Virus record (IMG/VR): IMGVR_UViG_3300033073_000243
Location: 1-64,000 of that record
Strand: one strand, 5' to 3'
DNA: 64,000 nt
DNA from: a virus
Taxonomy: Duplodnaviria; Caudoviricetes
The notes below the pieces were generated by a model. The model searched no databases and was not told the DNA's origin. It saw nothing but the letters and a program-made list of their open reading frames with translations. Positions 1,428 to 16,139 of the stretch are shown here, piece after piece; position 1 is the first letter of the stretch; the number at the start of each line of letters is the position of its first letter. A program made the translations under genes and the position numbers.

Positions 1428-1452
1428 AAAGCCTGGCCAGTCCGGGCTTTTT
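1428..1452 (+). terminator. Rho-independent terminator
   Basis: AAAGCCTGG-ccagt-CCGGGCTTT hairpin followed by a T run. Confidence 0.7.
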
Positions 1453-1477: not shown

Positions 1478-1485
1478 AATAAATA
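1478..1485 (+). promoter_or_regulatory. T4 late-promoter-like TAAATA box upstream of the 1.5-16 kb gene cluster
   Basis: AATAAATA between the terminator and GGAG-ATG(1508); resembles the T4 gp55 late consensus TATAAATA. Confidence 0.45.
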
Positions 1486-1507: not shown

Positions 1508-2254
1508 ATGATTTTATTAGAAGGTGGTAATGTATTTGCCAATGCCACGCCATTCGATCATAAAGATGTACCTGCTATACTGAACACAGTGAATTCAGCT
1601 TTAGAAGGTACTGGTATTACTGTTATACCGGTCGGTAGTGCCGCAAGTCCACGCCCTGGTAAGAAAAGCGGCGACATGGATGTATTAGCAGACGAAGCTT
1701 CTGTAATGAGTTTCTTCAAAGCTAAAGATGCCAAAACTGCTCGCAAAGCATTAAATGATTATATACATGCCAAAGGTTTAGAAACAGCACAAACGGGCAT
1801 CAATGTGCATGTTAATGTTCCGGTAGGCGGAGAACATCATCAAGTTGATATTATGGTAACTGCCAACGCAGGTCAAGTTGCTAAATTCCATACACATAAT
1901 ATTCCACAAGGTAGCCCTTACAAAGGTGTAAACAAACAATTACTAATGGCTTTCTTAGCCAAGGATAAAGGTTATATGTGGTCTGCATGGCAAGGATTAT
2001 TTGCTCGTGATGCTAACGGCAAGAAAGCAGACTTTGTAACAGATGATTTAGATAAAATTGCAGGCATTTTAGTTGGTAAAGAAGATGCTAGTGTATTAGG
2101 TAGCGTTGAAAGTATACTAGCTGCATTACCGCCAGATCAAGCAAAAGAATTATTAGCTCGTGGTAAGGCAGATCCTAATTGGAAAGAAGTATCGCAAGAA
2201 AGTTATCGCGTCGGGACAAACGAATGGTTCCGTAATATGTTGAACAAGTTATGA
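1508..2254 (+). CDS. Pol-beta-superfamily nucleotidyltransferase-like protein
   Basis: VGSAASPRPGKKSGDMDV fits the GS...SGD.D NTase signature, with a later third Asp (HHQVDIM). Confidence 0.55.
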   Translation: MILLEGGNVFANATPFDHKDVPAILNTVNSALEGTGITVIPVGSAASPRPGKKSGDMDVLADEASVMSFFKAKDAKTARKALNDYIHAKGLETAQTGINVHVNVPVGGEHHQVDIMVTANAGQVAKFHTHNIPQGSPYKGVNKQLLMAFLAKDKGYMWSAWQGLFARDANGKKADFVTDDLDKIAGILVGKEDASVLGSVESILAALPPDQAKELLARGKADPNWKEVSQESYRVGTNEWFRNMLNKL

Positions 2255-3117
2255 AAATAAACGAATTCCAATTAGACGAAATCGAACGCCTACGCCCAAG
2301 TGGATTTGAAGGCGGCAAAGAACATTTGAGTGGAGAATACGCAGCCGGTAAAATAGTTAAAAAGTTACCAGGCGGTAGTGGACTGTTATATTCCATTCAG
2401 AATGACAGCGGTGATATCAAGATTAGATTGTGGGATCCAAACAAAGGGGAATACCAACCTACACAAGAACCCAAGAAACAATCATGGCATAATAATAGAG
2501 AACATCAACAAAGAATTAGATGGTGGGAAGAAAGAAACGAAAGACTTAAGGCTGAGTTTGAAAAAGCTCCTGGCAAATTAATAGGCGAGTTAAATGTCGG
2601 CAAACCCTATGGTTTTCCACTAAAAAATGCGTTACAAGTTAACACTATCACTGTAGATGAAGATTACCGCGGTGTAGGTCTCGGTAAAGCATTGTATGGC
2701 ATTGTTCTTACTATCCTAAAGCGACCATTACTTGCGGGTTCTAGTCAAACACCCGGTGGTAGAAGAAATTGGGTAAGCCTAGCAAGTATTCCTGGTGTAG
2801 AAATGAAGGGTTATATTGCTGTAGACGACCTTGATTTGCAATCTATGGACACGAGTAAACTGGATCGTCGATATGATGATATAGCTTGGGTAAAGAGAAC
2901 TAACAAACAAGTAGAACAGAGAATCGATACTATCATGGGCAAGCTCGGTGGACAGTATATAGGCAGGGCCGATAATCGAGAATTTTTTGCCTTCGATGTT
3001 AGGCCCGATACAACAAAACAAGAATTGAAAGCACATGTAGATACTACTTTAACTAAAGTGTATGGTAGCTATAACTCCAGCGTTGGTTTATACGCAACTT
3101 GGACGGGACAAGCATGA
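2251..3117 (+). CDS. GNAT-family acetyltransferase with CTS-like leader
   Basis: QVNTITVDEDYRGVGLGKALYG is the acetyl-CoA-binding motif A (V...YRGxGxG); ATGA overlap with the upstream gene. Confidence 0.7.
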   Translation: MKINEFQLDEIERLRPSGFEGGKEHLSGEYAAGKIVKKLPGGSGLLYSIQNDSGDIKIRLWDPNKGEYQPTQEPKKQSWHNNREHQQRIRWWEERNERLKAEFEKAPGKLIGELNVGKPYGFPLKNALQVNTITVDEDYRGVGLGKALYGIVLTILKRPLLAGSSQTPGGRRNWVSLASIPGVEMKGYIAVDDLDLQSMDTSKLDRRYDDIAWVKRTNKQVEQRIDTIMGKLGGQYIGRADNREFFAFDVRPDTTKQELKAHVDTTLTKVYGSYNSSVGLYATWTGQA

Positions 3118-3662
3118 AAATAGTAGAATTATTAGAGGACGTCAAACAAGCATTGCATTTTGCCACACAGGCACATGCAGGGCAAACTCGTAGCGGTGGC
3201 GAGCCATACATCGGCCACCCTGTTAGAGTTGCACAGACTATTCGAAAATATAAACAGAGTCACAACATTGATGCCTTAATAGCTGCCGCTTACTTACATG
3301 ATACCATAGAAGATACAGACACTACCCATGAAGCATTGCATGACTTGTTTGGCGGATTGGTTGCTAGTCTGGTATTGGAACTTACTAGCGACTTAGAAGA
3401 AATTAAAAAAGTTGGTAAGAAAGAATACCTTGCTAAGAAGATGGCACACGATATGAGCAGCTATGGATTGGTTATTAAATTAGCAGACAGATTAGACAAT
3501 GTACAAGATATTGCAACTGCTAAGTCACCAGAATGGCGAGCACGATACAAAGCAGAAACAGAACATATACTCGACTATATTGAAAAGCATAGAGTGCTAT
3601 CTGGTACGCATCAACGTCTAATCGGTTTAATAAGAGATAAGTTAAACGAGATACCGGCATGA
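3114..3662 (+). CDS. RelA/SpoT-type HD hydrolase (small alarmone hydrolase, Mesh1-like)
   Basis: AHAGQTRSGGEPYIGHP, AAYLHDTIEDT, LELT and KLADRLDN motifs are all intact; true start is ATG 3114 (ATGA overlap). Confidence 0.85.
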   Translation: MKIVELLEDVKQALHFATQAHAGQTRSGGEPYIGHPVRVAQTIRKYKQSHNIDALIAAAYLHDTIEDTDTTHEALHDLFGGLVASLVLELTSDLEEIKKVGKKEYLAKKMAHDMSSYGLVIKLADRLDNVQDIATAKSPEWRARYKAETEHILDYIEKHRVLSGTHQRLIGLIRDKLNEIPA

Positions 3663-4213
3663 GATACTTAGAGATTATACAAGAATTCCAACTCCCAAAA
3701 AATTCGTGGGAGTTACTCATTTCCAATGCCGATAAAGAAGAGGCCGGAGATGAGCTTGTAAATCTCGTACAAACCGCGTATACTAATACACCTGACGGAA
3801 GTTTTGTTAATAGTATCCGTGATGTTATTCCTAGCGATTGGAATGTTATCGATTGGGATCAAGATCCTGATGTAGATAGTTGTGTATTTTACAGAAAAGC
3901 AAGAAACAACGAATCGTGGGTTGGATATAAAATACAAGGTATTGGACATGATGGTACAAAAACAAGTAAAGATAAAGCTATTACTAAAGTTCAATCAATG
4001 TTAACAAAGCCAGGCGTATGGATAGAATCTAGTGATGCTATGCGTCACATACTTAAGAAATTAAATGTTCCTTCGGTAGAAGATTTAAAAACATTACAGG
4101 CATTATTCAACGATCCTTTCTTAGAAAAATTTGATAATGACACTTACGACAGGCGTCTACCTAGCGGCAAAGTCGTAAGGGAAACAGTATTTGGGAATCC
4201 TAAACTAAAATGA
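3659..4213 (+). CDS. Hypothetical protein with CTS-like leader
   Basis: Coupled ORF (ATGA overlaps at both ends), starts MRYLEIIQE; no family recognised. Confidence 0.75.
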   Translation: MRYLEIIQEFQLPKNSWELLISNADKEEAGDELVNLVQTAYTNTPDGSFVNSIRDVIPSDWNVIDWDQDPDVDSCVFYRKARNNESWVGYKIQGIGHDGTKTSKDKAITKVQSMLTKPGVWIESSDAMRHILKKLNVPSVEDLKTLQALFNDPFLEKFDNDTYDRRLPSGKVVRETVFGNPKLK

Positions 4214-5349
4214 GATTACTAGAATTAAAAGAAGCCGCAGATCCTAAACTAGGTCGTGCATTTAACCACTTAGAGGATTTAGTTTTCTTCTATGGTACTA
4301 AGGGCACGATCGAAGCTCTTGAGCATTTAAAAGATATGAACACTGAGCAAGGCAGCGGTAGTGTTCGTATGAAATGGGACGGCAATCCTCAAATCTATTG
4401 GGGCAGAGAAAACGGACAAATCATTCCTCCACACGGACATGCTCAGTGGGGTCGTGCTAATTTGCCACAAACAGGCAAAGATGTAGCAGACTACATTATG
4501 GCAACAGGCAAAGCAACTACTCCAGAAGAGATTGCAAGTCGTCAACAGTTTGCAGACAAGTTTGCAAGTCTTGCAGATTTATTTGCAGCCGCAACTCCAG
4601 AAACATTAGATGGTAACAGTACATATTATGTCTATGCTGATGCATTATTTTTAAACAAACCAGAACTAGTAGATGGCGTTTACACATTCTGTCCTAACCC
4701 TAAAAGTCAAACTTGCTATCATGTAAAAGCTGATAGTGAATTAGGAGAACGCATCAAACATGCCGAAGTTATGGTTGTTGGTCATGCTTATTTTACAGCA
4801 CACGGACAGCCCGACAGCGCCCAGATTCCTATTAAAGACTTTAGTCAGTTTAACACAAACCCTAAACTAATTGTACTCGGTCCTATCTATAATGTTGCAC
4901 CTGTTGCTATAGATACAACAATGATAGATCAAGTCGAGGAACATATTAAACGTCATGCTCATAATGTTGATACTTTCTTAAATGGTACGGCAGGATTAAG
5001 TGACTTAAAACAAATCATATACACTTATGTCAATCAAAGTGCTAAGGCAAAACAGTTAGATAGTTTAAGTGCAGATCATTTCTTCCAATGGGCGGCGACA
5101 AAAGTCTCTGTGCCAAAGCAGGAGAAAATAAAACAGTTAAATAGTATGAACAACAATGCGTTGGAAGAGATATTTAAAATTGTAAGAGCGATTCAAATAT
5201 TAAAAGACAATGTCATTGACCAGATCGAAGCAGGACCTAAAGCAGACATTTGGGACACACATGGAGAAGGTCGTGTGCGTTATGCAGATACAAATAAACA
5301 ATTCGGTAATGTTAAGTTCGTTCCGAGAAAGCGTTGGACACCACAATGA
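4210..5349 (+). CDS. DUF6267-like protein (ligase-type KxDG nucleotidyltransferase fold)
   Basis: NHLEDLV...MKWDGNPQIYWG resembles the T4-like phage family found beside cytidylyltransferases; KWDG matches ligase motif I. Confidence 0.55.
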   Translation: MRLLELKEAADPKLGRAFNHLEDLVFFYGTKGTIEALEHLKDMNTEQGSGSVRMKWDGNPQIYWGRENGQIIPPHGHAQWGRANLPQTGKDVADYIMATGKATTPEEIASRQQFADKFASLADLFAAATPETLDGNSTYYVYADALFLNKPELVDGVYTFCPNPKSQTCYHVKADSELGERIKHAEVMVVGHAYFTAHGQPDSAQIPIKDFSQFNTNPKLIVLGPIYNVAPVAIDTTMIDQVEEHIKRHAHNVDTFLNGTAGLSDLKQIIYTYVNQSAKAKQLDSLSADHFFQWAATKVSVPKQEKIKQLNSMNNNALEEIFKIVRAIQILKDNVIDQIEAGPKADIWDTHGEGRVRYADTNKQFGNVKFVPRKRWTPQ

Positions 5350-6485
5350 AAATTAGACAATTATTAAAAGAAGCCGCTGGCGTTACTGCCGCATTTGCAT
5401 TTGGTCGTTTTAATCCAGCTCATCAAGGTCATATTGCCGTTTGGAAAACAGTTCAGAACGCAGGTGTTAAATGGTACATTGGTACTAACCCAACAACACA
5501 CGGACCAAATGACCCACTAACATTCGATCAGAAAACAGCGTGGATGGAAGCAATCTATCCTGCTATTGCCGGACATATTGAACCTGCTAACAGTGTTTTA
5601 TTTTTAGCCGCAAAGATTTATCAAGACTTGGGCGGTAATCAAGACTCTACAGTAGCTTATATTACAGATGAAACAGACTGGGCGTGGAGTGGTAAACTAT
5701 TAAATCAATACAATGGTGTTGAAGGTGCTCATGGATTCTATAAGTTTTCACAAATCGTTCATGTGCCTAGTCCACGAGTAAGTAGTGCAACAGCATTGCG
5801 TGATGCGGCTCGTGCAGATGACAAAGTTGCTTTCTATCATGCTAGCGGTACTGATCCTAAATTAAAAATTGCAGGTAAAACTTATTTTGATACTGTGCGT
5901 GAAGCTTGTTTAGGTGCAGATGCAAACAAAGCATCTAAGCGTAAACCTAAAGCAGAAAGCGTAGAAGAAGCAAGTCTTGCAACTATGCGTGATTATTTTG
6001 CAGGAAATAAAAATGCGGAAGATGAATTAAAGATAACTCAAATTCGTAAGCATTACGAAAAAGAAATTCCCCCAAATTCTAAAATTCAGAAAAAAGAATT
6101 CAGAAGCCATCATGACTATGACAAATGGTTAGAAAAGAATGGTTTAAGTAAAGTCGGTGGTAATCTAAAAGAGGTGGCTCCTCCTGGTATGGAACAATGG
6201 ATTAAAGATCGTAAGTCTGAGTTTAAAAAGCGTTACGGTGATCGTTGGCAAGAAGTTCTGTATGCCACAGCGTGGAAACAACATAACAACGAAAGCGTAG
6301 AAGGTATCGAAAATCAATCGTCAGAAGAGCTTTTAGAATACTTACGCAAGATACATAAGCGATGGGCCTTAGTAAGTAAAGGCGAAGGTAAACCTTTAGT
6401 TTATTACAAAGGCGAAGGTAAACCAAGTAAAGAATGGGTCAAGAAGCAAGAGCGTCGTATAGGTTACTTTAAACACAAAAAATGA
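5346..6485 (+). CDS. HxGH cytidylyl/adenylyltransferase-like domain plus C-terminal small modules
   Basis: FGRFNPAHQGH (HxGH) and RVSSATALR motifs; C-terminal third is split by SVEEA, LKEVA and SVEGI; true start 5346. Confidence 0.7.
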   Translation: MKIRQLLKEAAGVTAAFAFGRFNPAHQGHIAVWKTVQNAGVKWYIGTNPTTHGPNDPLTFDQKTAWMEAIYPAIAGHIEPANSVLFLAAKIYQDLGGNQDSTVAYITDETDWAWSGKLLNQYNGVEGAHGFYKFSQIVHVPSPRVSSATALRDAARADDKVAFYHASGTDPKLKIAGKTYFDTVREACLGADANKASKRKPKAESVEEASLATMRDYFAGNKNAEDELKITQIRKHYEKEIPPNSKIQKKEFRSHHDYDKWLEKNGLSKVGGNLKEVAPPGMEQWIKDRKSEFKKRYGDRWQEVLYATAWKQHNNESVEGIENQSSEELLEYLRKIHKRWALVSKGEGKPLVYYKGEGKPSKEWVKKQERRIGYFKHKK

Positions 6486-8695
6486 AATACAAAGAAATAT
6501 TTGAACAAATCATCAACGAAATTAATATGAGTCCGGCTGGTCTTCGTAGTCTAGTGGCCGATATTAATGCTCAAGCAGGTATGGAATTTGAAATGATTGT
6601 TCCGGGTGCGGCGGAAAGTGCCAGCAGTGATGATTACTTAGAACCAGATTACGATTCTAACGAAAGTACTCGCAGCTTTAGACAAATTCGCGATTTCTTC
6701 CATGATGGTGATTACAATGGACGCAGAGATGTAGAACGCTTGGAACAACGACTACTAGACGATTATATGGACAGCGATTTCTTAAGTGAAAAGAAACAAG
6801 AAGCATGGGGAGAAGCTTCCTATGATGCTGTTAGAGATTTAGTTGACAGAGATTATGCAGACGACTTGAGAGATCAAGCAACTGACGAAATTTCTGCTAA
6901 GACGCCAGAATTTGGTGTTAACGGTGATGAGTTCCAAGAAGCAGTTTTAGAGCGTTACAATGAATTAGTTCAGGAAAAAATTGACGACATTCTAGCTAAC
7001 ATGGGTAGCGAGTATGATGAAGCTTATGAGGAATGGGAACAAAACGAATGGCAAGATATATGGAATGACTTCGACTTACAAGAAGAATGGCTAGAACATG
7101 AAGGTCTAGAAACTATGAGTGATGTTGCCGATAATTACGATATCACATGGCCTTACTATTACAATCCAAACGATGGCGGCGGAGAAGTCAGTGTAGACGA
7201 TGCGGCAGACAGTTTTAGTCGTGCTATGGGTAAGCCAGTAAATGCCAGTTCCAGTTATCATGGTGCTCGCAGAGAAGCAGGGCATTATGTTGTAGAACCC
7301 GACGGCAGTTTAGAAGCAGACGATGATGAAGACGGTGGTTTAGAGTTTGTTAGTCCGCCTATGCCCATCAATGAGTTACTTGACGACCTAAAGAAAGTTA
7401 AAGCATGGGCAGACAAAACCGGATGCTATACAAATGACAGCACAGGTTTGCATATTAACGTCAGCGTTCCTGGATGGCAAGGCGATGTTGCTAAATTAGA
7501 CTATGTTAAACTTGCAATATTATTAGGCGACGAATATATCTTAAACGAATTCGGTCGCCAAGGTAATACATATTGTAAGAGTGCTTTGAAGATTGTCAAA
7601 GACAATATTACACAACGTCCAGAAGATGTAAAGCTATTACTAGATAAAATGCGTGAACATTTAAACACAAGCGCATCTAAATTGATACATAGCGGTGCCA
7701 CAAGCAAGTATACAAGTATCAATACCAAGACAGGTTACATTGAATTCCGCAGTCCAGGCGGCGATTGGTTAAACGAAAACTTTGACAAAATTGAAAATAC
7801 GCTTTATCGTTTTGTTGTTGCTATGGATGCTGCCGTAGATGAAACAAAATACAAACAAGAATATGCCAAGAAACTTTATAAGCTATTGTCTGGTAATGAG
7901 AAAGACAACACAAACACATTAACTTATTTTGCACAATATGCCGCAGGAGAATTACCACAAAGCGCATTAAAGAGTTTTATTAAACAGGCACAATTAGAGC
8001 GTAAAGTAAAGAAAGATCCAACAAGTGGACAGAAATATTGGTGGAGTGTTGGGCTAAGGTCTAATCCAAATTACAGAATTGAAGTAGTTGGTGCTAGTAA
8101 GGCGGAAGCCATTTCTGCCGCTATGGACAGTAACACCGATTTAATGAGATATAACGCTGACACCGACTTTACTGCAAAACCAATTCGTCCATTTGATGAT
8201 AGCTCAGTAAAGGCTACAGTAGGTGAACCACAACCTGCAGGTGGTTATAGGAACGCACTAAGTCAAACTGACATAGAAAATAGATTAGGTTGGGGTGGTC
8301 AAGAGGCAGATGCCAACTACGAAGTTGTAGATCGTAGCAATAATCGATCTGTATTTAAATTTATTGCTAATACTCCGCAAGAAGCACAGAGAAAATATGG
8401 ACAGGTTCTCGATGTATTTGGATTCCCGCATGATACAGAGAACTATGGCTTTAGGGAAATTGCTTTACCAGGGTCAACATTAGATTTACAACGTCAAAGA
8501 GTTGCCGCGGGTGATTTTACGGGCCAATGGAAAGTAATGATTGACGGCGAGGAAGTATACAGATTTGGTGGCGCCGGTAACAGCCAAGGCGATGCTAACA
8601 GAATCGCCCGAGAATGGATCAGACAACAAATATCAAGAGGAACTCTAAACCCAGCAGATAATGCAGATATAACTGTTGTACCAGTAATGAATTGA
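6482..8695 (+). CDS. Putative amidoligase (COOH-NH2 ligase type 2) with acidic insertion
   Basis: GMEFEM, GLEFVSPP, TNDSTGLHINVS, KYTSIN and IEFRSPGG are the conserved amidoligase-2 motifs; long D/E-rich insert. Confidence 0.7.
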   Translation: MKYKEIFEQIINEINMSPAGLRSLVADINAQAGMEFEMIVPGAAESASSDDYLEPDYDSNESTRSFRQIRDFFHDGDYNGRRDVERLEQRLLDDYMDSDFLSEKKQEAWGEASYDAVRDLVDRDYADDLRDQATDEISAKTPEFGVNGDEFQEAVLERYNELVQEKIDDILANMGSEYDEAYEEWEQNEWQDIWNDFDLQEEWLEHEGLETMSDVADNYDITWPYYYNPNDGGGEVSVDDAADSFSRAMGKPVNASSSYHGARREAGHYVVEPDGSLEADDDEDGGLEFVSPPMPINELLDDLKKVKAWADKTGCYTNDSTGLHINVSVPGWQGDVAKLDYVKLAILLGDEYILNEFGRQGNTYCKSALKIVKDNITQRPEDVKLLLDKMREHLNTSASKLIHSGATSKYTSINTKTGYIEFRSPGGDWLNENFDKIENTLYRFVVAMDAAVDETKYKQEYAKKLYKLLSGNEKDNTNTLTYFAQYAAGELPQSALKSFIKQAQLERKVKKDPTSGQKYWWSVGLRSNPNYRIEVVGASKAEAISAAMDSNTDLMRYNADTDFTAKPIRPFDDSSVKATVGEPQPAGGYRNALSQTDIENRLGWGGQEADANYEVVDRSNNRSVFKFIANTPQEAQRKYGQVLDVFGFPHDTENYGFREIALPGSTLDLQRQRVAAGDFTGQWKVMIDGEEVYRFGGAGNSQGDANRIAREWIRQQISRGTLNPADNADITVVPVMN

Positions 8696-8705
8696 GGATA
8701 ATACA

Positions 8706-8882
8706 ATGAGATTAAATGAATTAACAACAGACAAGTTAGCAAAATATAAAACGGCAGCGGCTGCTGATGCAAGTGCTGCTGATAAAGAAGGCGACTACAA
8801 ACGCGGCGATAAGCGTTTTAGTGGAATTATAAAAGCAACAAAAAAACAATTCGACAATGATGCTAAAAAGAATAAATCTTAA
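8706..8882 (+). CDS. 58-aa protein with CTS-like leader (not in ORF track)
   Basis: GAGGA RBS; MRLNELTTDKLAKYKTAAAADASAADKEGDYKRGDKRFSGIIKATKKQFDNDAKKNKS*. Confidence 0.8.
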   Translation: MRLNELTTDKLAKYKTAAAADASAADKEGDYKRGDKRFSGIIKATKKQFDNDAKKNKS

Positions 8883-9054
8883 ACGAGTATTTGTATTAAT
8901 TGCAACTCATGCGGCAGTATTTGCCGTTGGTGTTTACTATGGGTTAGAAGTATATGAAGCCTACATTAATGACCAATTTATTGTAGTGCCTAACGATGTT
9001 AACCGACAAGCACCATTTAAAGAATTTAAAGGTACAAAATATACAACGGTATGA
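8857..9054 (+). CDS. Possible small membrane protein
   Basis: One hydrophobic helix (VFVLIATHAAVFAVGVYYGL) and an ATGA overlap with the GH19 gene, but it overlaps the upstream ORF by 26 nt. Confidence 0.35.
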   Translation: MMLKRINLKRVFVLIATHAAVFAVGVYYGLEVYEAYINDQFIVVPNDVNRQAPFKEFKGTKYTTV

Positions 9055-9737
9055 AAGTTTCCGAGATAATATTAGAACAAGAATTAGATGAAGGTTGGAA
9101 AGACTGGGTAGCAGGCGCGGCTATGGGCGCAGCCGCATTAGGAGCAACTCCTGCAACTGCTAAACCAATGCCAATGCCAACGCAACAAGTATCTCAACAA
9201 TCATACAGTCCAGAAGAAAATAAAATTATTAAAACGATTTTACATCCTGCTGCCAAAATTTTAATTAAAACAGCTCGCGAAGCAGGATTAAATGGTGCAG
9301 AGCTTGCACAGTTTGTAGCTCAATGTGCTCATGAAACTTCTAACTTTACAAGCTTGAAAGAGTTCGGAGGTAAGTTAGATTTTAAAAAATATGACCCTGT
9401 ACACAATCCTCGCAAAGCAAAAATATTAGGTAACAAGAAAGCAGGCGATGGTGCTCGCTATCATGGCCGAGGATATATTCAACTAACAGGCCGAGACAAT
9501 TATAAAAGGGCAGGAGAAGCGTTAGGACTTCCGTTGGAAAAGCATCCTGAACTTGTAGAGAAACCCGAAGTGGCTGCTAAGGTTGCAGTTTGGTTTTGGA
9601 AGAATCAAGTTAAACCAAAAGTAAATAACTTCCAAGATACTGCACAAGTCACAAAACCAATTAATAGCGGATTGAAGGGTCTAGAAGACAGACATAACAA
9701 ATTTGCAGCCATTATGAATTTATTAAGGAGAAGCTAA
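9051..9737 (+). CDS. GH19 chitinase/endolysin-like peptidoglycan hydrolase
   Basis: AQFVAQCAHETSNF, YHGRGYIQLTGRDNY, AVWFW and INSGLKGLEDR are GH19 phage lysin motifs. Confidence 0.85.
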   Translation: MKVSEIILEQELDEGWKDWVAGAAMGAAALGATPATAKPMPMPTQQVSQQSYSPEENKIIKTILHPAAKILIKTAREAGLNGAELAQFVAQCAHETSNFTSLKEFGGKLDFKKYDPVHNPRKAKILGNKKAGDGARYHGRGYIQLTGRDNYKRAGEALGLPLEKHPELVEKPEVAAKVAVWFWKNQVKPKVNNFQDTAQVTKPINSGLKGLEDRHNKFAAIMNLLRRS

Positions 9738-9931
9738 TGAGAGTAAAAGACATTGTAGACGAAGCGGGCTTTTCCTATAAAGGATATCCTTGTACTAAAG
9801 ATTGCAGTGGACATATGGCAGGATATGCATGGGCAGACGATAGAGATATCAGCGACGAAGATGAATGCCCGTATCGTCCTACACACCCAAGCTTCTGGGA
9901 AGGCTGTAAGAGTAAAGCAGAAGGTAAATAA
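9737..9931 (+). CDS. Small Cys-containing protein with CTS-like leader
   Basis: MRVKDIVDE leader then CTKDCSGHMAGYAWA...C...SFWEGC; TAATG coupling. Confidence 0.75.
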   Translation: MRVKDIVDEAGFSYKGYPCTKDCSGHMAGYAWADDRDISDEDECPYRPTHPSFWEGCKSKAEGK

Positions 9932-9937
9932 TTTATT

Positions 9938-11284
9938 ATGCGTTTATTAGAATTAAAATCACTTGCCGAAGCCGCACTTACTGCTGGCGAAATCACTACA
10001 TACCCTTGGAGACAAGAGCTATTCATCAATAAGATTAGAAACGGAGAGCCTTTTGAATTAACCACAGGGGAAGAAGTAACTATTGATCCTGCTGAAGCAG
10101 ACCGCTTACAAGGTATGCTGGACTCTGGTACATTCGGAGGGACTGTTAAAATTGCATTAGACGACGGTACTATGCTATCCCTAGGCAAGCTACAAAAAAC
10201 TGTGGAGTTCCAAAAAGAAGGTGGTGTTAAAGGCGAAGGCGTTTCTAATAAAGGTGACATTTCCGAAGGTATCTTATCTGCTGCATTGTTTGCTAAACTT
10301 AAAGCTCGTGTCAACAAACAAATTGGCACAGTAACTCCTGATGACATTTGGTCTGTTGTTGACAGTTTAACTAAAACAGGCAAAAACACATACACAGTTA
10401 ATGTAAAAGACGGCAAGTCTATGGTCAATGATAGTATTGTCTTTACATTAATCTTACCTCCAGAAGCTTATAGAGATTTCATCGATCCTACAAAGCGTCC
10501 ATTATTAAAAGATCAAACAGACAGTGCCGCATTGTTTGCCAACAGCGAAGACAACGAAGAATTTAGTAAGTATTTCTATCTAAACGGACGTCCTGATATT
10601 ATTAATATCATTTGCGATGGCGGTAATCCAGAGAAACAAAAGATCAGTAAGGTCGATATTGAAGTTGTTATTACAGATAAATTAACAGGTAAAGTTGATC
10701 GTCGTCGTTTAGATATTAGCTTAAAAGTTGATGCCGCACAGTTCGGCCAAGTTGGTGTTGGTAGTACTAAAGACTATGACTTCTTTGAAAAGCAAGTTTC
10801 TTTATGGAATAAGTTTGGTGTTGATGTTCGCCCTTCTCAAGAAGGTTTTGACGAAGCATACAAAAAAGGCGGATTAGTTGATGCGTTAGCTTACATATAC
10901 GAATTTGCTGCCGATGTTATTGCTACTTTATTAGCCGATGATAATAGCGAAGATGAATATATGTTTATTACAGAACTAGCAAAGGGTATTAACTACTATG
11001 CTACTTTAGGTAATCCAAACATTATCCTATTAGACTTCTCGTCAGGAGGGTATAAGATGATGCGTTTTGACGATATCGAAGGCAAGCTAAAAGGCATTAA
11101 GCTAACAGCGTCTTATAACTATGACACTAAGTTACCTCAAGTTGACATTTATGATGCTAATACAGGTAAGTTGTTTGTTAAAGTCCGTGTAAAGATTACA
11201 GCCAAAGAACGCCGTAATTATATCGAAAAAGGCCCATTAATGACTGAACTATTGGGTACTAAGGTCAAGCGATTGAAAAAATAA
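9938..11284 (+). CDS. Possible PD-(D/E)xK nuclease-fold protein with CTS-like leader
   Basis: KGDISEG (helix Glu), KVDIEV and DISLK fit a restriction-endonuclease-like core; weak by-eye match. Confidence 0.4.
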   Translation: MRLLELKSLAEAALTAGEITTYPWRQELFINKIRNGEPFELTTGEEVTIDPAEADRLQGMLDSGTFGGTVKIALDDGTMLSLGKLQKTVEFQKEGGVKGEGVSNKGDISEGILSAALFAKLKARVNKQIGTVTPDDIWSVVDSLTKTGKNTYTVNVKDGKSMVNDSIVFTLILPPEAYRDFIDPTKRPLLKDQTDSAALFANSEDNEEFSKYFYLNGRPDIINIICDGGNPEKQKISKVDIEVVITDKLTGKVDRRRLDISLKVDAAQFGQVGVGSTKDYDFFEKQVSLWNKFGVDVRPSQEGFDEAYKKGGLVDALAYIYEFAADVIATLLADDNSEDEYMFITELAKGINYYATLGNPNIILLDFSSGGYKMMRFDDIEGKLKGIKLTASYNYDTKLPQVDIYDANTGKLFVKVRVKITAKERRNYIEKGPLMTELLGTKVKRLKK

Positions 11285-11311
11285 ATCGACATAAATTCGA
11301 TAAATAACATT

Positions 11312-11509
11312 ATGAAAATTAAAGAACTTATTAGTGAAGATGCAAGTATAGGCGGTATTAGTTCCGGCGGTTTTGCTACAGCACCTGCGGGTAATATTTT
11401 TGCCGTTCCTATGAAACGCAACCAGCCGCGCAAGCGTCCTAAAAAAGAACAAAACGAATTCGCTAATAGGCGTGATAATAAGAATGTTATCGAACAGGAT
11501 TTAAAATGA
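11312..11509 (+). CDS. Small protein with CTS-like leader
   Basis: MKIKELISEDASIGGISSGG; TAAATA box 5 nt upstream of the ATG. Confidence 0.7.
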   Translation: MKIKELISEDASIGGISSGGFATAPAGNIFAVPMKRNQPRKRPKKEQNEFANRRDNKNVIEQDLK

Positions 11510-12333
11510 GCAAACAGAGAGCCCAACAATTATACAAGCTTGCCGATAGTTTACTTAAGGTAAATGTAGCCAGTTTATCTGAAGCACAAAAAGCAGAGCG
11601 TAACTCCATGGTTGCTCGTTTACAAGAAGAATTAAAAACTCTTAAAGGTATCAAAGAAGCTCCTGGCGACTTAGGTAGCCAAATCGTTTATCTATACAAC
11701 AATATATATGAACTAGGAGATGATGCAGTAGACCACTTATATAACAATGCTCCGTTATTTGCACAATATTGGGATCAATACGAAGGCGATTTGGATAGTA
11801 TTATCCAAGAAGTACCTCCACAACAATTACAAAAGATTTATGCAGAGTTAAACAAGGCAGCACAAGAAGAAGGTTTAACTGAAATGGATTCACAAGGCTA
11901 TACAGGAAGTCGTGATCGTAAGAGCTCGAGCAAGTATGGTAGCCGCGATGATTATGAATTAGGTCAACCAGAAACAACATTAGGTAAAGATTCTATTATG
12001 ACTGGTCATGAAGCTTCCAATCAAGCATTGGACGCTCTTAAAAATGCATTTGACGACGAATATGACGAAGTAGAAGAAACAACAGGTAAGTTCGATCGTA
12101 AGGAAATTGCTCCAGGTCGTACACAATACACTCGTAAGGATGACACTTATACAACAGATGGAAGCAGTGTTGCTGACTACAGAGTATTAGCTCCGGGTCG
12201 TTCTATTGAAGATGACAACGAGCGCGAATTCAATCCACGAGATGATGAAGAATATGAGTTGGAAGAAGCGATAAGTACAGAAGCTTACGACAGACTTAAA
12301 AAAGTTTTCGACTTTAGTAATTTTAAAGGTTAA
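11506..12333 (+). CDS. Acidic multi-module (polyprotein-like) protein
   Basis: Segments separated by IKEA, LTEM, VEET and LEEA motifs. Confidence 0.7.
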   Translation: MSKQRAQQLYKLADSLLKVNVASLSEAQKAERNSMVARLQEELKTLKGIKEAPGDLGSQIVYLYNNIYELGDDAVDHLYNNAPLFAQYWDQYEGDLDSIIQEVPPQQLQKIYAELNKAAQEEGLTEMDSQGYTGSRDRKSSSKYGSRDDYELGQPETTLGKDSIMTGHEASNQALDALKNAFDDEYDEVEETTGKFDRKEIAPGRTQYTRKDDTYTTDGSSVADYRVLAPGRSIEDDNEREFNPRDDEEYELEEAISTEAYDRLKKVFDFSNFKG

Positions 12334-12336
12334 TAT

Positions 12337-13698
12337 ATGAAATTATTTGAACTATTTGAGAGCCCAGTTATTGCTGGTGCAAATAACTTAAAAGCAATTG
12401 CACAAGCGGCAACTAGTGCCAGCGATGCACACATCACATTGGGCGGCGAACCAGTTACTTTAGAGTATCCTGAAGCTCGCTTTATCTATGGCTTATACAA
12501 GAAGTCATTGCAGTCTGGTACACAAGAACAATTCTTACAGATGTTAACTAACCCTGCAAGTTTTGATAGCTTAATGAAACCAATGCGTAATATGCTATAC
12601 AAAGATCGCGGTCCAGAAATGGCTCAGGCGGCTGCTACCCGTATCGGTCAACCTGGTGTAGAAGAAAGTATCGACAAACCAGTAACAGGTACAGAAACAA
12701 TGAAGCACTTAGTTCAGCGTTTCCCTAAAGAAGTTAAAGACTTTATCGCAGGTGGCGAACTAGACAGCGACTTATACGAAGCATTATTTGATTACTACAA
12801 CTTACATGGCGAAATGCCATATGGTGTAGCTAAAGCTCGTACAGGCGATCCGTTCGAATGGGTAACACAACAATTTGACCGTGATGCACAAGAATATGTA
12901 ACTGAAGCTAAACAAGCTTACAAAAAATTAATTACAGAAAGCAAGAAACAAGTTAGCGAGCGTTGGGATGACGACGATGATGACTGGTATGGTTTTAACG
13001 ACAAAACTCGTAAAGCTGCCACAGGCGGTACAGTCACACAAACAGGACGCGGTGTTATCCATAAAGGCAAATATGGTAGCGAATATCAAGGTGACGATGA
13101 GGAAGAAGATAAGAGCCCATTTGCTATTCTCAAGACTGCTAAAGTAAAAGAGCCTCGTAGTGCTGGCCGTCCAAGTGCTAACATTAAAGCAACAGACGAT
13201 GGCATTAGCGTAACATCTTACTCTAGCTGGTATCACAAATCTAAGCGTAGTCACCCAGAGCGTAAGATTGTTGGTAGTGCAGAACGAGCAGTTGCCGTTA
13301 TTCCAAAAGGCAAAAAGTTTGCAGTTGTCGGTTCGTGGGATGGAGCTAAAGGCTTAATCAATGCTAAGGCAGGTGAAGTTGTTACAGTTGACCAACTAAA
13401 AGATTATAAATCTGGTCGCGGACGTCCAACTACACGAAAAGAAAGTGCAAGTTATCGCAATCGTGCTTTGCGTGAATGGATCGAACAATTAGTAGTTGTT
13501 TCAGAAGGCAAGAACCATATGGGCGAAACTGAATACAATACTTACAGCGGATGGAGAGCAGCTTGTAAAAGAGCAGGTGCTAACGAATTCGACGGAGATC
13601 GTGACATTTGCCAAGCTAAGAAGGACGGCAAAGGCGTAGGTGAATGGGACGGCGTAAGTGGTTCCGTTTATGATGACGCACATAAGAAAGCACAGTAA
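12337..13698 (+). CDS. Multi-module (polyprotein-like) protein with CTS-like leader
   Basis: MKLFELFES leader; internal VEES, VTEA, ITES, VSER and VSEG sites delimit compositionally distinct segments. Confidence 0.75.
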   Translation: MKLFELFESPVIAGANNLKAIAQAATSASDAHITLGGEPVTLEYPEARFIYGLYKKSLQSGTQEQFLQMLTNPASFDSLMKPMRNMLYKDRGPEMAQAAATRIGQPGVEESIDKPVTGTETMKHLVQRFPKEVKDFIAGGELDSDLYEALFDYYNLHGEMPYGVAKARTGDPFEWVTQQFDRDAQEYVTEAKQAYKKLITESKKQVSERWDDDDDDWYGFNDKTRKAATGGTVTQTGRGVIHKGKYGSEYQGDDEEEDKSPFAILKTAKVKEPRSAGRPSANIKATDDGISVTSYSSWYHKSKRSHPERKIVGSAERAVAVIPKGKKFAVVGSWDGAKGLINAKAGEVVTVDQLKDYKSGRGRPTTRKESASYRNRALREWIEQLVVVSEGKNHMGETEYNTYSGWRAACKRAGANEFDGDRDICQAKKDGKGVGEWDGVSGSVYDDAHKKAQ

Positions 13699-16139
13699 TG
13701 CGTTTAAATCAAATAACAGAAGGCCTAGCTGACGAATTTGCAGCTATGGCAAGAGCCAAAGGCATGAATCCACGGATTCATGGTACTCCTGAACAAGAGC
13801 GTGAGCGCACACGCCAGGCTCTTGCCCAACGAGATGCAGAAAGAGCAGAAGCACAGAAACGCGATACTGAAAATGATATTGCTCAACTTCCGGAATTAAA
13901 AGCTCAATATGATAAAATGAAGAGCGAATACGAATCACTAGGCGGAAGTAACTGGCAATATGCAGATCGCGAACAAAACTTATCCGATGGAGAACGCAAG
14001 GCTCGTTCAATGGAGCCCGAGTTAAATAACCTCTGGAGAAGAATATCTCGTGCCGAAAAGGCACAAGGTGTAAGCGAAGCAGGACCAACACGTCGTGGTT
14101 TTTTACAAAGCATTGGTGCAGCAGGTTTAACTGCGGCTGGTGTTGCATCTGCTAAAGGTGGCGGCGGTGGTGGAGGTCACGGCGGTGGTGGAGGACATGC
14201 TAGCTCTGGCGGTCATGCTAGTTCAGGTGGCAAAGGAGGTGGTGGTAAAGGTGCTAGTGCAGGAGCCAGAGGAGCGATGCACGGTGAACCATCTGCTAGA
14301 TTCGTACCTGGTCAACCATATGTTCCAATAACAGGTCATCATGTTGAACAAGGTGCTGGCAACGATGCTAATAAACAAGAATACATCAAGTTCCTAACAA
14401 GTTATGCTAATGCTATTCGTGCAGGTAAGATGACTCCTGAAATGCGTAAGTGGTTGAACAACCATCCTGAAGTCATCGAGGACTTGAAGCGTGGTAAGTA
14501 TGGATTGACTATGGGTCAACTTAATGCTGACTTGGTAGACATTGAATCTCGCAAGAATTATCACATGATGCGTGAAGGTGTATCTACGACATGGGAAGTT
14601 AGTTATGATTACGGTCCACATATGACTAAGACCGTTACGGTCAAAGCTAAATCAGAAGAAGAGGCTGCGGCTAAAGTAGAAAAGGCCGCAGAGAAAAAAG
14701 GCCTCAACATAATGATAAACTCTGTAACACCAGTAGAGCAAGGTGTGGTGGAAGGCGATGATCGCGGTAATTATCACAGCATTGCTAGAGCCGCAAACCA
14801 AGCAAGTAGAACAGCAAAGTCTAAACAAGATCACGCCAAGGCTGCTGACTTACACGACCGCGCCGCGACATATGGTCTATCAGCGGGCCAAGACCAATCT
14901 GTAATTCGTGACCATCAAATGGCAGCATGGGAACACAATCGTGCTAGTAAAAAAATGAAGGAAGATGTGGCGGAGGGCATAAATGACAAACCCGAAACAG
15001 GTGACAAGATTGTTTGGTATCATAGCAATCATTATCCTAAACTTGAAGGTGAAGTTGTTGGTTGGAAAGACGGGCATCTAATTGTTAAATCAATTGACCC
15101 TAGCCCTAGAAATACAGAAAAGACCGTAGCAACATATCGTGTGCCTAAGAATAATATAATGAGTGTCGAAAAGCAAGGTGTGGCGGAAGACCAATTAGAC
15201 GAAGCCAAGATTGCTTCAACTGAAGATGAAGATTTCTTTCATAAAGGAAAGAAAGTTGGTAGCATAACAAAAATCACTCTAAAAGATGGTATGGTATTTT
15301 ACCGTGCAACCGCAGGAAATTCTCATATTTCCGGTTCAGATACCCGTCAAGAAGCATTAAGAGATTTGAAAGAACTCTTGCGTAGAGAAAAAGAGGAAGG
15401 TGTGGCGGAAGGCTCGGATAACATCACTGCTGTATTTTCTGGTTATGGAAATTATATGAAAGGTCGTGCTGCCAATGTATTCAAACATTACGGTATTACC
15501 GTATTAGACCAACAATATGATGAAGATGAAGATATCGCAGAATATACAGTTAGCGGCAGTAAAGAGGCATTGGATCAAGCAAGAGCATACTTGGAACGCA
15601 GTGACCAATTTGGTGGCATGATCCTAAAGCAAGGTGTGGAGGAGGCAGAAAATGTAAGTCATTTACACAAAGCCTTAGACCGTGCTTTGAGTAAAGAAAA
15701 GAAAGCAAGCCCTGCACAAGTTCAACGCAACAAAGAGCGTTGGGCACAGCGTCAAGCAGAAAAGAATAAAGAAGTAGACGAAGGTGTAGCAACATCAATG
15801 CCAATGCAAGATGCTGTAAAATTATTGCGTCAGTATGGTGCAGATAACTTTAAAACAACTACAAACGAATTACATTTTTATAAAAACGGTCGAGCATTTA
15901 GTGTTGATTTGGTAATGAATCCAGATACTACTCGCAGTGTAACTTTAAGCAGTTTAAATGCAGCCACTCGTGGATTAAAAGGTAACAGTGCTTTACGTCA
16001 AGCGATTGAATCCATCGATGCAAACCAAAAACGAGTAGGTCAAGTTCCAGGCGAAGAGAAAGCTAAAAAGATCGGACAAGTACTTGCTAAACCTCCTAAG
16101 CAACATCCTTTTAAGGGACGCTTAGTAGGCGGTGAATAA
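13698..16139 (+). CDS. 813-aa modular polyprotein with repeated QGVAEG-type linkers
   Basis: Linkers ITEG, QGVSEA, MREG, QGVVEG, EDVAEG, QGVAED-QLDEA, EGVAEG, QGVEEA, VDEG and AIES separate about 10 unrelated modules of 40-165 aa. Confidence 0.8.
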   Translation: MRLNQITEGLADEFAAMARAKGMNPRIHGTPEQERERTRQALAQRDAERAEAQKRDTENDIAQLPELKAQYDKMKSEYESLGGSNWQYADREQNLSDGERKARSMEPELNNLWRRISRAEKAQGVSEAGPTRRGFLQSIGAAGLTAAGVASAKGGGGGGGHGGGGGHASSGGHASSGGKGGGGKGASAGARGAMHGEPSARFVPGQPYVPITGHHVEQGAGNDANKQEYIKFLTSYANAIRAGKMTPEMRKWLNNHPEVIEDLKRGKYGLTMGQLNADLVDIESRKNYHMMREGVSTTWEVSYDYGPHMTKTVTVKAKSEEEAAAKVEKAAEKKGLNIMINSVTPVEQGVVEGDDRGNYHSIARAANQASRTAKSKQDHAKAADLHDRAATYGLSAGQDQSVIRDHQMAAWEHNRASKKMKEDVAEGINDKPETGDKIVWYHSNHYPKLEGEVVGWKDGHLIVKSIDPSPRNTEKTVATYRVPKNNIMSVEKQGVAEDQLDEAKIASTEDEDFFHKGKKVGSITKITLKDGMVFYRATAGNSHISGSDTRQEALRDLKELLRREKEEGVAEGSDNITAVFSGYGNYMKGRAANVFKHYGITVLDQQYDEDEDIAEYTVSGSKEALDQARAYLERSDQFGGMILKQGVEEAENVSHLHKALDRALSKEKKASPAQVQRNKERWAQRQAEKNKEVDEGVATSMPMQDAVKLLRQYGADNFKTTTNELHFYKNGRAFSVDLVMNPDTTRSVTLSSLNAATRGLKGNSALRQAIESIDANQKRVGQVPGEEKAKKIGQVLAKPPKQHPFKGRLVGGE
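14064..15647 (+). repeat. Dispersed in-frame 18-bp linker repeat, consensus cAAGGTGTGGcGGAaGgc (6 copies)
   Basis: 14064 caaggtgtaagcgaagca; 14739 caaggtgtggtggaaggc; 14961 gaagatgtggcggagggc; 15174 caaggtgtggcggaagac; 15396 gaaggtgtggcggaaggc; 15630 caaggtgtggaggaggca. All are in frame with ATG 13698. Confidence 0.85.

What the first reader, a model, noticed from the sequence alone, without database searches (positions are those of the whole stretch)
1508..16139. A 14.6-kb operon of apparently capsid-packaged, protease-matured effector proteins
Seen: 14 of about 16 consecutive genes begin with a shared leader ending in hydrophobic-X-E (MILLE, MKINEFQLDE, MKIVELLE, MRYLEIIQE, MRLLELKE, MKIRQLLKE, MKYKEIFEQIINE, MRLNE, MKVSEIILEQELDE, MRVKDIVDE, MRLLELKSLAE, MKIKELISE, MKLFELFE, MRLNQITE). 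It is essentially absent from the metabolic and replication genes elsewhere in the window. Established: T4 internal proteins carry a capsid-targeting sequence (MKTYQEFIAE) removed by the gp21 prohead protease at (I/L)-X-E and are injected with the DNA. Inference: this block is an unusually large injected arsenal of enzymes (NTase, GNAT, alarmone hydrolase, ligase-fold, HxGH transferase, amidoligase, GH19, nuclease-fold). The domain mix matches what is described for phage polyvalent proteins, but here it is delivered as separate tagged genes. A TAAATA late-type box sits at its head.
Basis: partly seen in the sequence, partly recalled or inferred. Interest (0 to 1): 0.85.

Follow-up and report, generated by a model that had tools for sequence, protein, structure and literature searches.

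The report
Capsid-addressed, protease-cut phage cargo gene block
A fragment of an uncultured giant T4-like phage carries a 14.6-kb late-gene block. Nearly every protein in it starts with a T4-style "load me into the head, then cut here" tag, so the phage probably ships a kit of enzymes and small modules inside its capsid, though cutting and packaging are unmeasured.

Summary
Thirteen of 16 consecutive genes at 1508-16139 start with M-K/R-hydrophobic-x-E/Q/D-hydrophobic and reach a hydrophobic-x-Glu within 14 residues. A 14th (1508) has only a doubtful 5-residue version. None of 99 other ORFs on the 84.6-kb contig has the leader (p about 1e-13).

The capsid-targeting reading is well supported by comparison, but not proven:
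- T4 gp24, Alt, gp22, gp21 and IPII/IPIII start with the same pattern.
- Related contigs encode a gp21-type (S77) prohead protease.
- In a 235-kb relative the leader occurs only in the syntenic block and in the small gene between portal and protease (the T4 gp67/68 position).
- Modules that are separate leader-bearing genes here are fused inside larger proteins in relatives, and the hydrophobic-x-Glu is kept at each joint.
- A (Q/K/E)-G-V-x-E linker occurs five times in the 813-aa protein and once in the 453-aa protein, and nowhere else on the contig.

The enzyme calls mostly hold: Pol X-like NTase, GNAT, MESH1/SpoT hydrolase, amidoligase, GH19 and a restriction-endonuclease-like fold.

This contig lacks the head genes. 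Packaging, cleavage and injection are inferred.

It is a new variant of the known T4 CTS/internal-protein system. Earlier follow-ups of this scan reported similar tagged cargo and protease-jointed polyproteins on other phage DNA. I found no paper describing them.

The parts
1428..1450 (+). Terminator-like hairpin closing the upstream unit
   Evidence: 9-pair stem with 5 GC pairs followed by a T run
1479..1485 (+). ATAAATA box, T4 late-promoter-like, at the head of the block
   Evidence: The heptamer occurs 8 times in the window against 24 +/- 5 expected. The three copies near this block (1479, 11300, 16173) sit just upstream of gene starts. The same box precedes portal and other head genes in relatives.
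1508..2254 (+). 248-aa Pol X-like nucleotidyltransferase; its 5-residue 'leader' (1508-1522) is doubtful
   Evidence: AF2 pLDDT 86.5; Foldseek to Pol lambda/beta, E 4e-8; N-terminus conserved as part of the family
2251..3117 (+). 288-aa protein with a GNAT domain; leader at 2251-2280
   Evidence: Pfam Acetyltransf_1, E 4e-4, just over the cut-off; leader
3114..3662 (+). 182-aa MESH1/SpoT-type small alarmone hydrolase; leader at 3114-3137
   Evidence: Pfam HD_4, 3e-18. PDB MESH1/HDDC3, 5e-17, with homology starting at residue 10-11, right after the leader.
3659..4213 (+). 184-aa protein of unknown function; leader at 3659-3685
   Evidence: No family hit; leader
4210..5349 (+). 379-aa DUF6267 protein (K-x-D-G motif, ligase-like by inference); leader at 4210-4233
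   Evidence: Pfam DUF6267, 7e-17. Cyanophage homologue Syn1_160 starts without the leader.
5346..6485 (+). 379-aa HxGH cytidylyltransferase-like protein with shuffled C-terminal modules; leader at 5346-5372
   Evidence: PHROG cytidyltransferase, 9e-13; its C-terminal modules recur in other proteins of relatives
6482..8695 (+). 737-aa Amidoligase_2 protein; leader at 6482-6520
   Evidence: Pfam PF12224, 3e-10; the leader end (hydrophobic-N/S-E) is conserved in orthologues
8706..8882 (+). 58-aa basic module; short leader at 8706-8720
   Evidence: Matches positions 529-582 of a 698-position PHROG, so it is an internal module elsewhere
8857..9054 (+). 65-aa hydrophobic ORF without a leader; uncertain whether it is a real gene
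   Evidence: ORF listing only; no family hit
9051..9737 (+). 228-aa GH19 muramidase/chitinase-type protein; leader at 9051-9092, followed by a Gly/Ala-rich hydrophobic stretch
   Evidence: Pfam GH19, 3e-14; PHROG endolysin, 3e-41. In relatives the module is fused internally and the acidic hydrophobic-x-E joint is kept.
9737..9931 (+). 64-aa Cys-rich module; leader at 9737-9763
   Evidence: The same module is the C-terminal part of proteins of 169-791 aa in relatives, each time directly after a hydrophobic-x-E
9938..11284 (+). 448-aa restriction-endonuclease-like (PD-(D/E)xK-type) protein; leader at 9938-9970
   Evidence: AF2 pLDDT 78. Best folds are MspI/HinP1I, Z 7.6/7.4, followed by other nucleases of this type. 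P1 Glu11 is invariant and Leu9 nearly invariant in 12 orthologues.
11300..11306 (+). Second ATAAATA box, inside the block
11312..11509 (+). 65-aa protein; leader at 11312-11338
   Evidence: orthologues in relatives keep the leader
11506..12333 (+). 275-aa acidic protein without the short leader, but with a conserved L-S/N-E near residue 26; its relatives carry G-V-x-E linkers
12337..13698 (+). 453-aa protein conserved across the clade; leader at 12337-12360; one G-V-E-E linker
13698..16139 (+). 813-aa polyprotein of small modules. The leader is at 13698-13721. G-V-x-E linkers lie at 14067-14078, 14742-14753, 15177-15188, 15399-15410 and 15633-15644, and an A-I-E joint at 16002-16010.
   Evidence: The linker has 5 copies here and 0 in the 22,928 aa outside the block. 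The last module is a separate leader-bearing gene in relatives L005 and L007, beginning right after their leader Glu.

Best explanation
The block is a late-transcribed cluster of head-internal cargo genes of a jumbo T4-superfamily phage.

Proposed mechanism:
- Each product starts with an 8-14 residue amphipathic, acidic propeptide equivalent to the T4 capsid-targeting sequence. This propeptide takes the protein into the scaffolding core of the prohead.
- The gp21-type (S77) prohead protease then cuts after the Glu of a hydrophobic-x-Glu motif and frees the mature protein inside the capsid.
- The same protease probably cuts the (Q/K/E)-G-V-x-E linkers and similar joints, turning the 813-aa and related polyproteins into many small modules.
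- The cargo is then expected to leave with the DNA and act before any phage gene is expressed. It comprises a Pol X-like NTase, GNAT, alarmone hydrolase, ligase-like protein, HxGH transferase, amidoligase, GH19, nuclease-like protein and small modules.

What is shown:
- the leader and its exclusivity to this block;
- its identity of pattern with T4 propeptides;
- the protease and a leader-bearing core gene in relatives;
- conservation of the cut motif at fusion and fission joints;
- the late-type boxes.

What is inferred: binding to the core, cleavage, retention in the virion, ejection, and the role of each enzyme.
For: - Exclusivity: 12 of 15 block genes against 0 of 99 other ORFs; 13 of 15 hits in a six-frame scan of all ATGs.
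- T4 sequences read from NC_000866 show the same pattern: gp24, Alt, gp22, gp21 and the IPII/IPIII tag. In T4 the first 10 residues of IPIII suffice for packaging and are cut by gp21 (PMC9026906).
- Four of five long related contigs encode Peptidase_S77. The head module is confirmed by Pfam: Portal_T4, S77, Gp23.
- In relative G001 (313 ORFs) the pattern hits 11 genes: 10 in the syntenic block upstream of the DNA polymerase, and the 70-aa gene between portal and protease.
- The GH19, Cys-rich and C-terminal modules occur either as separate genes with a leader or fused inside larger proteins, always preceded by hydrophobic-x-E.
- The G-V-x-E linker is confined to block proteins, with up to 9 copies per protein in relatives.
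- Homologues outside the clade lack the leader, and MESH1 homology starts just after it.
- Leaders are conserved as peptide, not as DNA.
- P1 Glu is invariant in 12 orthologues of the 448-aa protein.
- A terminator and an ATAAATA box stand at the head of the block. The heptamer is three-fold depleted overall, and the same box precedes head genes in relatives.
Against: - No protease, capsid or portal gene lies on this contig, which is about 22% of a genome, so the link to the protease rests on relatives with 79-84% DNA-polymerase identity.
- No proteomic, structural or expression data exist for any member of the clade.
- The block sits next to replication genes, not in the head module.
- Hydrophobic-x-E is a common tripeptide: 16.8 per 1000 aa in the block against 14.6 elsewhere, so single sites carry little weight.
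- The first gene's leader is doubtful, and two block ORFs lack the short leader.
- Several cargo proteins are acidic, whereas the T4 internal proteins are described as basic.
- A GH19 with a hydrophobic segment could instead be an ordinary lysis enzyme.
Confidence: 0.72

Rival explanations
1. The leaders and linkers are prohead-protease sites, but the proteins serve inside the producing cell or the capsid. They could be extra scaffold or core mass, DNA-condensing peptides, or enzymes acting on DNA during packaging. They are degraded or stay behind rather than acting as injected effectors.
For: In T4, gp22, gp67 and gp68 carry the same kind of sites and are cut into fragments that mostly leave the head. 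The leader is also on the gp67-position core gene of relatives. Many modules are small, repetitive and of unknown function.
Against: Folded enzymes with conserved catalytic-type domains make poor disposable scaffold. The hypervariable, shuffled content among close relatives is what host-conflict cargo would look like. T4 proteins with this tag (IPs, Alt) are ejected.
Confidence: 0.15
2. The shared N-terminal peptide is a recognition tag for a modifying enzyme, for example one of the many radical-SAM/SPASM enzymes of this phage, as an earlier follow-up of this scan concluded for a shared tag in phage RB43.
For: The contig and all five relatives tested carry 1-19 radical-SAM matches. That earlier follow-up found such a tag-enzyme link (e1-127136).
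Against: No radical-SAM gene is adjacent to the block. In my gene list the nearest is at about 31 kb (a QueE-like gene) and the radical-SAM island starts near 48 kb on the other strand; in G001 they lie 37 kb or more away. The motif equals T4 propeptides, and T4 has no such enzyme. It sits on a head-core gene and recurs as internal linkers ending in Glu.
Confidence: 0.04
3. The leader is a nucleic-acid-level or translation feature. It could be an A-rich initiation region that boosts expression, or a conserved DNA cassette that only serves recombination between genes.
For: Most leaders start ATG AAA/AGA and are AT-rich. Genes are translationally coupled by ATGA overlaps. Conserved flanks are known to mediate shuffling in T4-type phages (PMC2839356, listed; not read).
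Against: Codons differ between leaders and the longest shared word is 15 bases in one pair. The same peptide motif is kept at internal joints where no initiation occurs. None of 99 other genes uses it.
Confidence: 0.03
4. The GH19 protein, and perhaps others, are ordinary late lysis or metabolic proteins. The shared N-terminus is then a lineage habit without a sorting role.
For: GH19 matches endolysin PHROGs, and a Gly/Ala-rich hydrophobic stretch follows its leader (the likeness to SAR-type endolysins is my own knowledge).
Against: This does not explain why unrelated folds share the tag, why homologues elsewhere lack it, or why the tag recurs at fusion joints.
Confidence: 0.05

Closest known systems
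Phage T4 internal proteins IPI, IPII, IPIII and Alt with the capsid targeting sequence (CTS), processed by gp21 (Mullaney and Black 1996; reviews PMC3012670, PMC9026906)
   Same: A short N-terminal propeptide with the same residue pattern, ending in hydrophobic-x-Glu. A gp21-type S77 protease is present in the clade. Unrelated mature parts share only the tag, and content varies between related phages.
   Different: At least 13 tagged genes lie in one 14.6-kb block, against four cargo proteins in T4. Most are sizeable enzymes rather than small basic proteins. Polyproteins with repeated internal cut-type linkers are present. The host phage is a distant jumbo lineage (DNA polymerase 50% identical to phage Phosso). 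Nothing has been measured.
T4 prohead core proteins gp67, gp68 and gp22, cut into several fragments by gp21
   Same: Several hydrophobic-x-Glu sites per chain, and a small tagged gene between portal and protease in relatives.
   Different: The block proteins are not in the head module, and they carry enzyme domains and shuffled modules.
Ejection/inner-body proteins of giant phages phiKZ, 201phi2-1 and SPN3US, cut at S/A/G-x-Glu (PMC5694885, PMC10052503)
   Same: Many head-internal proteins are matured by a gp21-related protease after Glu, and a large protein mass is ejected with the DNA.
   Different: Those propeptides are mostly longer than 100 residues and the motif has a small residue at P3. 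Here the propeptides are T4-length with a hydrophobic P3. The lineages are unrelated to each other.
Polyvalent proteins of phages and conjugative elements (Iyer et al. 2017, PMC5512222)
   Same: Strings of conflict-type domains (GNAT, Pol-beta NTase, lysozyme-type) predicted to be packaged and delivered with the DNA, with strong mosaicism.
   Different: Here the domains are mostly separate genes or chains joined by prohead-protease-type sites. No MuF, portal-fusion or zincin-like peptidase context was seen. Amidoligase is not among the published domains.
Phage P1 Dar system (DarA, DarB, Hdf, Ddr proteins) packaged in the head (PMC9024508, PMC12810830)
   Same: A set of head-packaged, partly processed proteins that protect incoming DNA.
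   Different: No sequence relation was seen, and P1 uses a different phage type and a different incorporation hierarchy.

Membership tests
T4-type CTS-bearing, gp21-processed head-internal proteins | N-terminal propeptide of about 10-20 residues ending in (L/I)-x-Glu, with hydrophobic residues at the T4 targeting positions | tested here: met
   13 block genes. The pattern matches T4 gp24, Alt, gp22, gp21 and IPII/III read from NC_000866. The position profile comes from 94 distinct leaders.
T4-type CTS-bearing, gp21-processed head-internal proteins | The genome encodes a gp21-type (Peptidase_S77) prohead protease | tested here: inconclusive
   Not on this 84.6-kb fragment. Present in 4 of 5 long related contigs, including two with 79-84% identical DNA polymerase.
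T4-type CTS-bearing, gp21-processed head-internal proteins | The same motif occurs on bona fide head proteins of the same lineage | tested here: met
   In relatives, the small gene between portal and protease carries the leader. The protease, scaffold and capsid protein start with related hydrophobic-x-E sequences. I-M-E lies 3 residues before the part of the capsid protein that aligns with mature T4 gp23.
T4-type CTS-bearing, gp21-processed head-internal proteins | Late transcription | tested here: inconclusive
   ATAAATA boxes at 1479 and 11300. The heptamer is depleted three-fold, and the same box precedes head genes in relatives. No transcript data.
T4-type CTS-bearing, gp21-processed head-internal proteins | Protein present in virions with a new N-terminus after the Glu, and ejected on infection | not testable with these tools
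Polyvalent proteins (Iyer et al. 2017) | Two to 15 conflict-type domains in one polypeptide | tested here: inconclusive
   The 813-aa and 737-aa proteins and several relatives are multi-module, but most enzymes here are single-domain genes.
Polyvalent proteins (Iyer et al. 2017) | Published domain repertoire and context (MuF/portal fusion, zincin-like peptidase, ART, and so on) | tested here: inconclusive
   GNAT, Pol-beta-type NTase and lysozyme-type domains are shared. Amidoligase is absent from the paper, and its alarmone domain is the synthetase. Pfam found no MuF, ART or zincin-like peptidase in the block.
phiKZ/SPN3US-type ejection proteins | Cleavage motif S/A/G-x-Glu and long (>100 residue) propeptides | tested here: not met
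   P3 is hydrophobic (L/I/V/F) and leaders are 8-14 residues. The motif comparison is from PMC5694885.
Radical-SAM maturase tag (RiPP-like) | Tagged genes encoded next to the maturase | tested here: not met
   Radical-SAM genes are present but lie about 15 kb or more from the block here and 37 kb or more away in G001.

The most novel reading that the evidence does not exclude
This lineage runs a plug-in cargo system. Any module becomes capsid cargo by acquiring either a T4-type leader or a G-V-x-E joint, and genes fuse and split at these protease sites. In this way a jumbo phage injects a changeable multi-enzyme kit ahead of gene expression: Pol X-like NTase, ligase-like protein, nuclease-like protein, alarmone hydrolase, HxGH transferase, amidoligase and a wall hydrolase. 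Some pieces would expose export-type signals only after the cut and be re-routed to the host envelope.
Probability: 0.4. Interest if true: 0.8.

Novelty: new variant of a known kind. Interest (0 to 1): 0.62.

Why it matters
If true, the T4 capsid-targeting trick is not limited to a few small internal proteins in T-even phages. It would be a general, evolvable delivery platform in abundant uncultured giant phages: one block gene alone has 807 metagenome homologues. The leader would give a sequence rule for predicting which phage proteins reach the host before transcription starts. That matters for finding first-line counter-defence enzymes. It would also show that cutting at prohead-protease sites lets phages swap cargo as fused or separate modules. 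The leader and linker peptides are directly testable with a recombinant protease.

Tried and rejected
- Close DNA relatives in GenBank phages: none.
- The search for related loci with the 448-aa protein found nothing in IMG/VR. The DNA polymerase worked instead.
- Phage Phosso, the nearest cultured phage by polymerase, has no such block upstream of its polymerase. I did not search it or Atu_ph07 further, so no virion proteome of a cultured relative could be brought in.
- Sequence searches left four proteins unexplained: 3659, 11506, 12337 and 13698. The ligase-like protein (4210) and the HxGH protein (5346) had no meaningful PDB sequence match.
- The 1508 and 9938 proteins were also blank by sequence and were placed only by fold.
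- Radical-SAM co-occurrence could not discriminate, because every relative has such genes.
- DNA-level conservation of the leaders was looked for and not found.
- Counting bare hydrophobic-x-E tripeptides does not separate block from non-block proteins. Only the leader pattern and the G-V-x-E linker do.
- Literature searches found no description of tagged cargo blocks or protease-jointed polyproteins in T4-like phages. Subscription papers, such as the 1994 work on T-even internal-protein polymorphism, are not in the library.

Full report
**What the window is.** The window is the first 64 kb of an 84.6-kb IMG/VR virus contig that CheckV rates at about 22% complete. Its family-B DNA polymerase (17467-20115) is 50% identical to that of Sinorhizobium jumbo phage Phosso. 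It is 43-47% identical to those of Atu_ph07 and the RaK2/K64-1 group. The contig is therefore a fragment of an uncultured jumbo member of the T4 superfamily. No GenBank phage matches the block at the DNA level.

**The observation.**
- Sixteen ORFs on the + strand fill 1508-16139. Most are joined by 4-base ATGA overlaps.
- A strict pattern hits 12 of 15 called block genes and 0 of 99 other ORFs on the contig (p = 8e-14). The pattern is M, K/R, a hydrophobic residue, any residue, E/Q/D/N, plus a hydrophobic-x-Glu within 16 residues.
- A scan of every ATG in all six frames finds 15 matches. Thirteen are starts of block genes; the other two are a 31-codon antisense ORF and an internal Met.
- The first gene is the weak case. 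Its M-I-L-x-E-G-G-N-V-F start is conserved across the 120 homologues examined, of 807 found, as if it belonged to the domain.
- Two ORFs lack the short leader. One is a 65-aa hydrophobic ORF at 8857. The other is the 275-aa protein at 11506, which has a conserved L-S/N-E near residue 26 instead.

**Why the leader looks like a T4 capsid-targeting propeptide.**
- I read T4's own proteins from NC_000866. The vertex protein gp24, Alt, the scaffold gp22 and the protease gp21 all begin with the same arrangement of hydrophobic and acidic residues ending in hydrophobic-x-Glu. The IPII/IPIII tag occurs twice exactly.
- In T4 the first ten residues of IPIII are enough to load foreign proteins into the head, and gp21 removes them. 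T-even internal proteins are described as a diverse set sharing only this tag (PMC9026906 and PMC3012670).
- The window's leaders equal the T4 tags shortened by one residue at the N-terminus. This is my own alignment of the sequences.

**The protease and head genes.**
- This fragment has no S77 protease.
- The DNA polymerase retrieved 65 related IMG/VR loci.
- Four of five long related contigs encode Peptidase_S77.
- Pfam confirms a T4-type head module in a relative with 84% polymerase identity: Portal_T4, S77 and Gp23.
- Between portal and protease, where T4 has genes 67 and 68, sits a 68-70-aa gene that carries the leader.
- The protease, scaffold and capsid protein of these relatives also start with hydrophobic-x-Glu sequences. 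The capsid protein has I-M-E three residues before the part that aligns with mature T4 gp23.

**A near-genome test.**
- I fetched the whole 235-kb contig G001 (79% polymerase identity, 313 ORFs).
- The strict pattern hits 11 genes. Ten lie in the syntenic block 87-109 kb upstream of the polymerase, and the eleventh is the head-core gene (p = 3e-12).
- In the complete but distant 453-kb contig G004, the 14 pattern hits are scattered in small groups.
- Relatives with 71% polymerase identity have radical-SAM genes, not the block, upstream of the polymerase.
- Phosso has no such block there either.

**The strongest evidence: fusion and fission at the cut motif.**
- Block content differs greatly between close relatives.
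- BLAST of block proteins against the relatives shows modules that are separate leader-bearing genes in one phage and internal parts of larger proteins in another.
- At every such joint a hydrophobic-x-Glu stands directly before the module:
  - The GH19 module is preceded by an acidic leader-like stretch inside 358- and 445-aa proteins.
  - The 64-aa Cys-rich module follows V-L-E or I-L-E inside proteins of up to 791 aa.
  - The last module of the 813-aa protein follows A-I-E here, but follows the leader Glu of separate genes in two relatives.
- A (Q/K/E)-G-V-x-E linker occurs five times in the 813-aa protein and once in the 453-aa protein. It never occurs in the other 22,928 residues of the contig. 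One relative protein has up to nine copies.
- An N-terminal translation feature cannot explain internal joints. A protease site can.
- Leaders are conserved as peptide, not as DNA.
- In 12 orthologues of the 448-aa protein (34-69% identical), the P1 Glu is invariant and the P3 Leu nearly so.
- Homologues outside the clade lack the leader (cyanophage Syn1 and ACG-2014f). The homology of the 3114 protein to MESH1 begins just after the leader.

**Transcription signals.**
- A 9-pair terminator hairpin (1428-1450) is followed by ATAAATA at 1479 and the first ATG at 1508.
- The heptamer occurs only 8 times in the window against 24 +/- 5 expected.
- The copies at 1479, 11300 and 16173 sit just upstream of gene starts, and the same box precedes portal and other head genes in relatives.
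- This fits T4's late promoter TATAAATA (my own knowledge), but no transcript data exist.

**What the cargo is.**

| Gene start | Assignment | Evidence |
|---|---|---|
| 1508 | Minimal family-X polymerase-like NTase | pLDDT 86.5; Pol lambda/beta, E 4e-8 |
| 2251 | GNAT | Weak Pfam hit |
| 3114 | MESH1/SpoT-type alarmone hydrolase | |
| 3659 | Unknown | No family hit |
| 4210 | DUF6267 with a K-x-D-G motif, so ligase-like by inference only |; no PDB sequence match |
| 5346 | HxGH cytidylyltransferase-like | |
| 6482 | Amidoligase_2 | |
| 9051 | GH19 | |
| 9938 | Restriction-endonuclease-like fold; moderate support | MspI/HinP1I, Z 7.6/7.4, then other PD-(D/E)xK nucleases |
| 11506, 12337, 13698 | Unknown, modular | |

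An early-acting kit for nucleic-acid repair and for countering alarmone-based defence is a reasonable guess, but it is only a guess.

**Rivals.**
- The proteins may be core or scaffold material that is not ejected. This cannot be excluded, although enzyme domains and shuffled content argue for cargo.
- A radical-SAM recognition tag was suggested by an earlier follow-up of this scan on phage RB43. It is unlikely here. Such genes are present in every relative but never adjacent to the block, and the motif is T4's.
- A translation or DNA-cassette role is contradicted by the internal joints and by codon variation.

**Known or new.**
- The principle is textbook T4 biology. The idea that T-even internal proteins are diverse apart from the tag is also published.
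- I did not find the following in the library: a block of 13 or more tagged genes dominated by enzymes; chains of modules joined by a fixed cut-type linker; or interchange between a separate gene with a leader and an internal module behind a linker.
- Earlier follow-ups of this same scan reported comparable tagged cargo and protease-jointed polyproteins in other uncultured T4-like phages. Within the scan this is therefore a recurring theme, not a single oddity.
- I rate it a new variant of a known kind.

Noticed in passing
window 9093-9170: After the predicted cut of the GH19 protein, the new N-terminus is a Gly/Ala-rich hydrophobic stretch ending in A-T-A, like a signal or SAR-type anchor. 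The wall hydrolase might be routed to the envelope only after processing.
   Followed up: no
window 14079-14160: Right after the first G-V-S-E linker of the 813-aa protein comes an R-R-x-F-L motif with a hydrophobic region (Tat-signal-like), then a Gly/His-rich tract.
   Followed up: partly
window 1479, 11300, 16173, 35863, 39563, 45483, 54037/54048: ATAAATA occurs 8 times against 24 expected by shuffling. The copies at 1479, 11300 and 16173 sit just upstream of gene starts, making them candidate late promoters of this lineage; I did not examine the context of the others.
   Followed up: partly
window 16198-16883: A Dps/ferritin-like gene and an 81-aa gene follow the block behind their own ATAAATA box. 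A sigma-70-like promoter (16885-16912) then precedes the genes leading to the DNA polymerase.
   Followed up: no
window 608-1234: A pirin/cupin gene sits just upstream of the block and ends before the terminator hairpin.
   Followed up: no
G002 (contig of L059) 180797-188536: This is a second cluster of four small leader-bearing genes far from the polymerase in a relative, so a lineage can have more than one cargo locus.
   Followed up: no
window 8706-8882: The 58-aa basic protein matches positions 529-582 of a 698-position PHROG (phrog_26930). It is an internal piece of long proteins in other phages.
   Followed up: no
window 1508-2254: The Pol X-like protein family has 807 homologues at E <= 0.001 in metagenomes, some on contigs of 290-335 kb. 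The lineage is common and near-complete genomes exist.
   Followed up: partly
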